A stretch of DNA of 52,709 nucleotides, from positions 1-52,709 of the forward strand of contig JBGGMM010000209.1 of NCBI GenBank assembly GCA_041288045.1, in the 5' to 3' direction. The notes under the pieces were generated by a model. It saw only the letters and a program-made list of their open reading frames with translations, had not been told where the DNA came from and searched no databases. Within the stretch, counting starts at the first letter, position 1; each line of letters opens with the position of its first letter. Shown here piece by piece: positions 34,397-34,855 of this stretch. The DNA comes from Pseudobdellovibrionaceae bacterium (lineage in GTDB: Bacteria; Bdellovibrionota; Bdellovibrionia; Bdellovibrionales; Bdellovibrionaceae). Made by a program: the position numbers and the translations under genes.

Positions 34397-34425
34397 TTGG
34401 CTCTCGATCTTGGTCTTGTTACAAT
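34397..34425 (+). promoter_or_regulatory. Putative sigma70 promoter upstream of the riboswitch
   Basis: TTGGCT-N17-TACAAT with an extended -10 TG. Confidence 0.5.
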
Positions 34426-34592
34426 AAAATAAATGGAGGTTGGAATGCACGTGATTTTCGATCCAAAGCCCAAGTGACGACCCGTCACTAGGATGGCTAC
34501 CGCAAAGAAGCATTCACTTAAAACCAAAAAGAAAACTTAAAAACTGATGAAGGAGGTTCCCGCAGAAATTTAGATAGGATTTTCATCCTTCC

Positions 34593-34690
34593 TTTGCTCA
34601 AGGCAAACTTGTGGAAACGCGAGGGCGCAAAGCTAGAGGGGCTAACAGGTCGAGACTCATGACCTCATGCCAGCCAGACTGCCAGAGGAC
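34593..34690 (+). ncRNA. Cyclic di-GMP-I (GEMM) riboswitch aptamer
   Basis: GGCAAAC-TTGTG-GAAA-CGCGAG-GGCGCAAAG (P2 with GAAA tetraloop), P3 with receptor-like GCTAA...ATGCC, ending CAGCCAGACTGCC. Positions equivalent to Vc2 G20 and C92 are G and C, consistent with c-di-GMP rather than cGAMP. Confidence 0.88.
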
Positions 34691-34734
34691 GAACAAACGG
34701 AAGGAAAAAATATGAAAAAGGTTTCATTCCCCTG

Positions 34735-34782
34735 AGCCCGCTTTGATAATCAAGGTTGATTGCAAAGCGGGTTTCTTAGTTT
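34735..34782 (+). terminator. Long hairpin with T-rich tail downstream of the riboswitch
   Basis: GCCCGCTTTG-A-TAATCAA-GG-TTGATTG-CAAAGCGGGT followed by TTCTTAGTTT. Confidence 0.6.
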
Positions 34783-34855
34783 CTAGCCGCTTTTCTGGCC
34801 CAGACTAGACCCCGCAAATTCAAAGTATTCTCCAATAAAATCCGATGTCTAACCT

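What the first reader, a model, noticed from the sequence alone, without database searches (positions are those of the whole stretch)
34397..34782. Apparently stand-alone c-di-GMP-I riboswitch RNA gating only a 7-codon ORF
Seen: the aptamer is enclosed by an extended helix in which TTTTCAT-CCTTCC-TTTG (34580-34596) pairs with CAAA-C-GGAAGG...ATGAAAA (34694-34718). This would bury an SD and AUG, but the ORF is only MKKVSFP* (34712-34735), followed by a terminator-like hairpin. The upstream promoter would give an RNA of about 350 nt. Established: Bdellovibrio bacteriovorus has an abundant stand-alone c-di-GMP riboswitch RNA (merRNA) proposed to sequester the messenger. Inference: a merRNA-like sponge, a relic left after gene loss, or a leader-peptide attenuator for the downstream FecR-like gene.
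Basis: partly seen in the sequence, partly recalled or inferred. Interest (0 to 1): 0.75.

Follow-up and report, generated by a model that had tools for sequence, protein, structure and literature searches.

The report
c-di-GMP switch RNA (merRNA orthologue)
This is the local copy of merRNA, a free-standing RNA of predatory Bdellovibrio-like bacteria that senses the messenger c-di-GMP; comparing relatives shows it is built as a switch that hides or exposes a short conserved tail sequence, which gives concrete ways to test what this long-unexplained RNA does.

Summary
The feature is real. It is a c-di-GMP-I aptamer (59.8 bits) inside a promoter-to-terminator unit that is collinear with published merRNA. 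It is single-copy in 23 of 24 family genomes, although the 2013 paper found no wider conservation.

It competes with the ligand-stabilised P1a stem (-74.3 vs -73.4 kcal/mol) and covaries. Its outer extension is unsupported.

Attenuation of the 34856 gene is unlikely: 49 of 74 downstream genes are convergent.

A micro-ORF stopping at the terminator is family-wide, but this copy uses another frame, and its 14-nt motif is conserved as RNA, not as peptide. Folding predicts that ligand hides the motif (56 of 62 loci).

Best reading: a c-di-GMP-gated regulatory RNA whose output is that motif. The leading candidate target is three flagellin starts, which is suggestive but not significant.

This scan already reported merRNA orthologues with micro-ORFs and a competitor helix on other genomes.

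The parts
34397..34425 (+). sigma70-type promoter, TTGGCT-17-TACAAT with extended TG (predicted)
   Evidence: the -10 region aligns in three same-genus copies; not shown experimentally
34435..34477 (+). SD GGAGG plus upstream micro-ORF MHVIFDPKPK* (34445-34477)
   Evidence: found by script in 27 of 96 loci (an undercount, some loci missed by first-match logic), always ending Lys-TGA; counterpart in the published merRNA
34474..34495 (+). GTGAC/GTCAC hairpin over the uORF stop, followed by AGGAT (possible CsrA site)
34550..34556 (+). strand a: SD-like AAGGAGG with no start codon behind it
   Evidence: GGAGG in 90 of 98 loci; no ATG/GTG/TTG at SD distance in 77 of 90; pairing with TCCTT no better than shuffles
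34586..34596 (+). strand b: TCCTTCCTTTG, shared by P1a and the competitor helix
34592..34688 (+). c-di-GMP-I aptamer; G20=34602, A47=34629, C92=34682; P1a 34591-96 with 34683-88
   Evidence: pocket bases intact in 102 of 102 loci; roles of G20 and C92 from PMC6140456 passages, role of A47 recalled; P1a paired in 99.5% of cells but without two-sided changes
34694..34705 (+). strand c: anti-P1a competitor CAAA-C-GGAAGGA, also the SD of the micro-ORF in this copy
   Evidence: beats the shuffle mean in 94 of 98 loci, p<=0.05 in 47; 5 of 7 pairs with two-sided changes in 33 sequences
34712..34735 (+). micro-ORF MKKVSFP*, stop at the foot of the terminator; frame differs from the family's ...FHSP*
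34720..34733 (+). strand d: nucleotide-conserved motif GGTTTCATTCCCCT, proposed output of the switch
   Evidence: 73 of 102 loci within 3 mismatches; less accessible in the P1a state in 56 of 62 loci
34734..34784 (+). intrinsic-terminator-like hairpin (34734-34774) and U-rich tail
   Evidence: the published merRNA ends at the same element

Best explanation
It is the orthologue of B. bacteriovorus merRNA (identity about 0.97 certain) and works as a strand-swap switch with a trans output.

Without ligand, strand b pairs with strand c. P1a is broken, the micro-ORF's SD is buried in this copy, and the 3' motif d is single-stranded. c-di-GMP locks P1a and frees c. Freed c folds onto d and, in copies like this one, lets a ribosome read 7 codons over d. 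Either way d is hidden.

Free d acts on another molecule, most simply by pairing with translation-start regions. The best candidates are the flagellin mRNAs that begin ATG GGA ATG AGA.

Shown: aptamer, orthology, covarying competitor helix, RNA-level conservation of d, no conserved downstream gene. Computed: near-equal energies and the masking of d. Inferred: ligand binding, translation, action in trans, and the target.
For: Orthology.

Switch. The anti state is lower in free energy in 49 of 62 loci, by 2.6 kcal/mol on average.

d conserved as RNA: TTT in 73 of 73 loci, TCC in 71, CCT in 68. It is also kept when read in other frames, in 13 of 68 loci including this one. d is more open without P1a in 56 of 62 loci.

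Another class of the phylum shows the same four-strand cascade with no micro-ORF, by eye in 11 of 13 loci.

Flagellin: best conserved start-region match between G000 and G060 among 587 orthologue pairs, 10 bp, -12.8 kcal/mol. The exact GGA ATG AGR form occurs in 64 of 74 MGMR flagellins in this family against 15 of 38 elsewhere in the order (hand count).
Against: No target is significant. One of 12 shuffled motifs did as well. In the wider set of 1168 pairs, a quarter or more of 60 shuffles did as well, and an internal lpxK site ranked first.

The flagellin codon form also occurs in families lacking the motif, and the contrast has one phylogenetic origin. The U facing the G of AGA never becomes C (73 of 73). 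Only 10 of the 14 conserved bases are explained.

No perfect 12-nt complement exists elsewhere in G000, or in 4 of 5 relatives. No Hfq was found in 5 of 5 genomes.

Folding does not show the AUG opening in the P1a state in most loci (17 of 62), so the translation step is weak outside copies like this one. The 81% preference for one frame still needs explaining. The window's own transcript was not examined.
Confidence: 0.45

Rival explanations
1. c-di-GMP reservoir with built-in release. The RNA stores ligand. Strand c is the ejector, and d, the ribosome or RNase E set when P1a is invaded or the RNA is degraded.
For: Proposed as a sponge in PMC3627812 (passages), with about 2 million RPKM in attack phase. 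Depth of 0.4-1.1 million over the RNA against 334 on the next gene in run X2. Intact pocket in 102 of 102 loci. RNase E/G in 5 of 5 genomes. Fragment ends pile up at the end of strand c in one environmental run. Precedent for ligand-dependent stability: Vc2 (abstract of 10.1101/617340).
Against: It does not explain why d is invariant rather than covarying with c (d is unchanged where c reads GGAAGTA). The competitor helix lowers net affinity. The pile-up comes from one run, from a relative, and may be priming bias.
Confidence: 0.25
2. The micro-peptide ending (W/R)FHSP is the effector, made when c-di-GMP is high.
For: 55 of 68 starts are in the FHSP frame; by distinct length classes 13 of 20, binomial p 0.004. 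The stop varies among TAG 30, TAA 30 and TGA 1 of 73.
Against: Almost no synonymous change within the motif. This copy and 12 others use other frames. Other families encode unrelated peptides. The other class has no such ORF (by eye). 64 of 68 stops lie within 15 nt after the motif whatever the frame, so the position is conserved, not the peptide.
Confidence: 0.12
3. CsrA decoy gated by c-di-GMP, relieving repression of flagellin in attack phase.
For: csrA in G000 beside a fliW-like gene (fliW named from gene order and recall) and in 39 of 40 relatives. B. bacteriovorus CsrA represses a hag reporter (PMC13443453 passages). GGA 5.8 against 4.3 expected, above expectation in 66 of 71 loci; GGA inside 35 of 70 terminator hairpins against 3 of 25 shorter control hairpins. 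5' hairpins with GGA loops in the other class (by eye).
Against: This copy has 9 GGA against 8.5 expected and has lost the GGA-loop hairpin behind the aptamer. The family excess includes SD sequences. The A two bases before GGA is kept in only 60 of 90 orphan SDs. csrA is also present where no aptamer was found. It does not explain d.
Confidence: 0.12
4. Leader-peptide attenuator: a ribosome at the Pro-stop blocks the terminator and lets transcription run into the next gene (here 34856).
For: The stop abuts the hairpin. The last residue is Pro in 56 of 68. The 34856 gene is co-oriented and shared by 6 loci, 5 of them same-genus copies.
Against: The first downstream ORF is convergent in 49 of 74 loci and falls into 34 families. 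The 34856 gene has its own FliA-type promoter, TCAAAG-N16-CCGATG, with the CCGAT box in 6 of 6 loci. About a 3000-fold drop after the terminator in run X2, and no reads beyond it in X21 (a relative with a convergent neighbour, contig depth only).
Confidence: 0.04
5. Relic left after loss of the regulated gene.
For: This copy has lost the hairpin between aptamer and strand c and shifted frame.
Against: One copy in 30 of 40 relatives, covariation, an intact pocket and massive expression of the orthologue.
Confidence: 0.02

Closest known systems
merRNA of Bdellovibrio bacteriovorus HD100 (PMC3627812; passages, Fig. S1 text and Table S1 rows seen)
   Same: Same order of elements: uORF ending Lys-TGA, hairpin plus CAGGAT, AAGGAGG, TCCTTCCTTTG, aptamer, GGAAGGA, GGTTTCATTCCCCT, terminator. 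mrp lies upstream.
   Different: About 350 nt against 445 nt. No hairpin between aptamer and strand c. The ORF starts behind GGAAGG and is read as VSFP, not WFHSP. The downstream gene is co-oriented. The paper reported no conserved ORF and no conservation outside Bdellovibrio; both are contradicted here.
c-di-GMP-I (GEMM-I) riboswitches, RF01051, e.g. Vibrio cholerae Vc2
   Same: Aptamer fold and G20/C92 pocket; an expression platform with a competing helix.
   Different: No conserved protein-coding gene in cis. Vc2 lies before tfoY and stabilises upstream RNAs (abstract).
Riboswitch-controlled sRNAs: EutX/Rli55 (B12) and SreA/SreB (SAM); recalled, only the SreA title seen in a reference list
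   Same: A riboswitch inside an RNA whose action is proposed to be in trans.
   Different: Those arise by termination control. Here the terminator looks constitutive, and the ligand would set the accessibility of a motif in the finished RNA.
CsrB/RsmZ-type decoys (recalled)
   Same: Abundant RNA with several GGA motifs; csrA present.
   Different: GGA is not enriched in this copy, and it has an aptamer.

Membership tests
c-di-GMP-I riboswitch (RF01051) | Covariance-model score above the gathering cut-off, full length | tested here: met
   59.8 bits against 35, model positions 1-87
c-di-GMP-I riboswitch (RF01051) | G20 and C92 (and A47, recalled) in the pocket | tested here: met
   34602, 34682, 34629; 102 of 102 loci; roles
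c-di-GMP-I riboswitch (RF01051) | Binds c-di-GMP | not testable with these tools
   needs in-line probing
c-di-GMP-I riboswitch (RF01051) | Controls a conserved protein-coding gene downstream in cis | tested here: not met
   49 of 74 convergent, 34 families; the aptamer is a member, the classical cis role is not met
GEMM-Ib (3',3'-cGAMP) riboswitch | A at position 20 | tested here: not met
   G in 102 of 102; criterion from PMC6140456
merRNA | Collinear sequence elements with the published RNA | tested here: met
merRNA | Locus next to mrp | tested here: met
   mrp ends about 3 kb upstream in the window with three genes between; mrp-like hit in the flank of 38 of 102 loci, flanks of unequal length; Bd1134 beside merRNA
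merRNA | Bounded stand-alone transcript, massively expressed in attack phase | tested here: inconclusive
   seen for the relative L061 in run X2; no reads were laid on the window
Leader-peptide attenuator | Conserved co-oriented target operon behind the terminator | tested here: not met
Base-pairing sRNA | Conserved single-stranded seed with a conserved complementary target | tested here: inconclusive
   motif conserved; flagellin candidate not significant
Hfq-dependent sRNA | Hfq in the genome | tested here: not met
   0 of 5 genomes, four of them at least 97% complete
CsrB/RsmZ decoy | Many GGA motifs in loops, above chance | tested here: inconclusive
   not enriched in this copy, mildly enriched across the family

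The most novel reading that the evidence does not exclude
merRNA is a second-messenger-gated antisense RNA that works without Hfq. c-di-GMP does not switch its synthesis. It switches whether a 10-nt seed is free to pair over codons 1-4 of three flagellin mRNAs (fliC2, fliC5, fliC6), with a 7-14-codon ORF helping to clear or mask the seed. This would tie c-di-GMP directly to the make-up of the predator's flagellum.
Probability: 0.18. Interest if true: 0.85.

Novelty: new member of a known kind. Interest (0 to 1): 0.58.

Why it matters
merRNA is among the most abundant RNAs of attack-phase Bdellovibrio. Its function has rested on one untested sponge proposal since 2013; the four papers found that name it use it as a promoter or a marker, or repeat the proposal.

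The comparison shows an order-wide switch with defined strands, so each idea can be tested by a few point mutations in a tractable laboratory strain.

This copy is a useful natural variant. It keeps the motif and the stop position but changes the reading frame, which separates an RNA function from a peptide function.

Tried and rejected
- Perfect antisense target: none besides the locus itself in G000 or in 4 of 5 relatives; the one extra site in G020 was not followed up.
- Single-genome scan of 2945 predicted start regions: 144 hits at -15 kcal/mol or better, against 24-129 for 10 shuffles, so not informative.
- The lpxK hit is an internal coding site next to a mis-called start.
- Pairing with 23S rRNA, a recalled resemblance: the recalled word was not found in G000 or in G060.
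- Pairing of the orphan AAGGAGG with strand b: p<=0.05 in only 5 of 98 loci.
- STAB-SD protection against RNase J (concept recalled): RNase J not found in 5 of 5 genomes.
- csrA co-distribution: uninformative, 39 of 40 genomes have it.
- Runs X6 (flat contig depth) and X22 (6 reads) were uninformative.
- Paper searches listed no functional study of merRNA; one search was swamped by an unspecific term, and only the top 14-20 titles of each were seen.
- Earlier-findings searches by sequence and for CsrA/flagellin returned nothing.

Full report
1. Observation. Rfam finds one RNA family in the window, c-di-GMP-I at 34592-34686 (59.8 bits, cut-off 35), and it is the only copy in G000, which is 83% complete. 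The 7-codon ORF (34712-34735) and a strong hairpin behind it (34734-34774, z -5.4) are real. A promoter-like site at 34397-34425 would give about 350 nt. The pocket bases are G20, A47 and C92. G20 points to c-di-GMP rather than cGAMP (PMC6140456 passages; the role of A47 is recalled). The 34856 protein has no Pfam match; FecR matches the divergent upstream gene.

2. The helix. The two folds cost -73.4 (P1a) and -74.3 kcal/mol (competitor), and the outer TTTTCAT:ATGAAAA part has probabilities of 0.03-0.13. Across 98 loci the best partner of strand b downstream beats the shuffle mean in 94, with p<=0.05 in 47. In 33 aligned sequences, 5 of 7 pairs of TCCTTCC:GGAAGGA show two-sided changes, and 0 of 500 shuffles reach the covariation score. 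The stretches were trimmed at the predicted partner and are related, so this leans towards the structure. P1a is paired in 99.5% of cells without two-sided change.

3. Identity. Thirty of 40 relatives have exactly one hit, including 23 of 24 in the family. In a phylum sample, 24 of 91 genomes have one. The published merRNA sequence (PMC3627812, Fig. S1 text) is almost identical to L061 and has every element of the window's unit in the same order. merRNA lies beside mrp (Table S1 rows). The window has mrp about 3 kb upstream, and 38 of 102 loci have an mrp-like hit in their flank. The paper's statements that there is no conserved ORF and no conservation outside Bdellovibrio do not hold with today's genomes.

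4. Not a cis switch for the next gene. Of 74 loci with enough flank, 49 have a convergent first ORF. The neighbours fall into 34 families; the commonest (28 loci) is a convergent SLT/LysM transglycosylase. The 34856 family occurs in 6 loci, each with a CCGAT box before the start. In the window this reads TCAAAG-N16-CCGATG, matching the published FliA consensus TTAAG-N16-CCGATA. Reads were laid on L061, not on the window. Run X2 gives contig depth of 0.4-1.1 million over the RNA and 334 on the next gene. Run X21 gives 487 strand-specific reads, none beyond the terminator. X6 and X22 were uninformative.

5. The micro-ORF and the motif. Of 150 loci, 8 were dropped for lack of a recognisable aptamer end, duplicates were collapsed to 104, and 2 were too short. 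Of the 102 left, 73 carry GGTTTCATTCCCCT within 3 mismatches, and 68 of these have an assignable start: 55 in the FHSP frame, 4 in this copy's frame and 9 in the third. By distinct length classes the preference is 13 of 20 (p 0.004), so translation is probably selected. The motif shows almost no synonymous change (TTT 73 of 73, TCC 71, CCT 68) and stays intact in the other frames. In 64 of 68 loci the stop lies within 15 nt after the motif. Other families encode unrelated peptides. What is conserved is an RNA word and a stop position. With P1a enforced, the motif is less accessible than in the competitor state in 56 of 62 loci (0.37 against 0.54), because the freed strand c folds onto it. The AUG is more open in only 17 of 62 loci and the SD zone in 29 of 62; in this copy both open. 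In another class of the phylum, 11 of 13 hits show, by eye, the same cascade of four strands ending in a CCTCTTCA word before a terminator, without a micro-ORF.

6. What the motif might act on. There is no perfect complement. Three of seven flagellin genes in G000 begin ATG GGA ATG AGA, which pairs with 10 contiguous bases of the motif. In a two-genome test (G000 and G060) these were the best conserved start-region match among 587 pairs, equalled by 1 of 12 shuffles. Among 1168 pairs they came second to an internal lpxK site, and a quarter or more of 60 shuffles did as well. The exact codon form is found in 64 of 74 MGMR flagellins of the family and 15 of 38 elsewhere in the order (hand count). 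The family sample is dominated by two genera; in the broader sample my hand count was 48 of 61. The motif pattern hit 27 of 27 family genomes (the listed G060 match is not its merRNA copy) and 9 of 103 others, mostly at unrelated sites. The contrast has a single origin, so the Fisher p value overstates it. By position these genes correspond to Bd0606, Bd3052 and Bd3342, that is fliC2, fliC5 and fliC6 (PMC2791853 passages). This is a lead, not a result. Hfq and RNase J were not found in 5 of 5 genomes, while RNase E/G was found in all 5. CsrA is present and active on a hag reporter (PMC13443453 passages), but this copy is not GGA-rich.

7. Mechanism and odds. A c-di-GMP-gated RNA whose output is the tail motif: 0.45. 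A reservoir with built-in release: 0.25. Peptide effector: 0.12. CsrA decoy: 0.12. Attenuator: 0.04. Relic: 0.02. The first two are not exclusive: anything that captures the motif frees strand c to invade P1a.

8. Literature seen. PMC3627812: passages, supplement 1 in full, rows of supplement 2; its .doc supplement could not be read. Passages only: PMC6140456, PMC13443453, PMC2791853, PMC9140294, PMC7468853, PMC11323537, 10.1101/2025.05.17.654431 and 10.64898/2026.01.30.702909. Abstract only: 10.1101/617340. Searches listed no functional test of merRNA and no report of its ORFs. The library lacks most subscription papers, including Bdellovibrio work cited in these texts, so absence from print is not established. 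Earlier notes of this scan report merRNA orthologues, micro-ORFs and the competitor helix on other genomes. I reached these points before reading the notes. The RNA-level reading of the motif, its predicted masking and the flagellin lead were not in the lines shown to me.

9. Verdict. A real feature and a new member of a known kind. Its value lies in turning merRNA's unknown function into specific mutations to test. Interest 0.58.

Noticed in passing
window 34820-34847: FliA-type promoter about 10 nt before the 34856 start, implying a nearly leaderless mRNA; CCGAT box in all 6 loci with this gene.
   Followed up: partly
window 34445-34480: The upstream micro-ORF is conserved as a peptide type (His/Asp-rich in Bdellovibrio...PKPK here). 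It always ends Lys-TGA, mostly followed by CGA or AGA. Function unexplained.
   Followed up: partly
window 34550-34556: Perfect SD with no start codon, kept in 90 of 98 loci. In short versions of the RNA it sits about 10 nt from the predicted 5' end (by eye). Unexplained.
   Followed up: partly
L158, L159, L160 (G000 flagellin leaders): Hairpins with GGA in the loop, as expected for CsrA sites (by eye).
   Followed up: no
flagellin starts: One flagellin paralogue begins with the same nucleotides, ATGGGCTTAAGA, across most of the order, suggesting a separate RNA-level constraint.
   Followed up: no
L196-L207: Second class of the phylum with the same four-strand cascade.
   Followed up: partly
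L094, L095: Two tandem aptamer copies, each about 50 nt before a 160-170-aa ORF with a signal-peptide-like start: an ordinary cis arrangement.
   Followed up: no
L061 2425-2428: Fragment ends in run X21 pile up at the end of strand c, a possible 3'-trimmed form lacking the motif. One run; may be priming bias.
   Followed up: partly
PMC3627812 Fig. S1: APsRNA2, APsRNA5, APsRNA6 and APsRNA7 also appear to carry an SD and an ORF, so some may be small mRNAs.
   Followed up: no
L050, L068, L093: Records labelled Pseudomonadota, Streptomyces and Yersinia carry the full element; probably mislabelled or mis-binned contigs.
   Followed up: no
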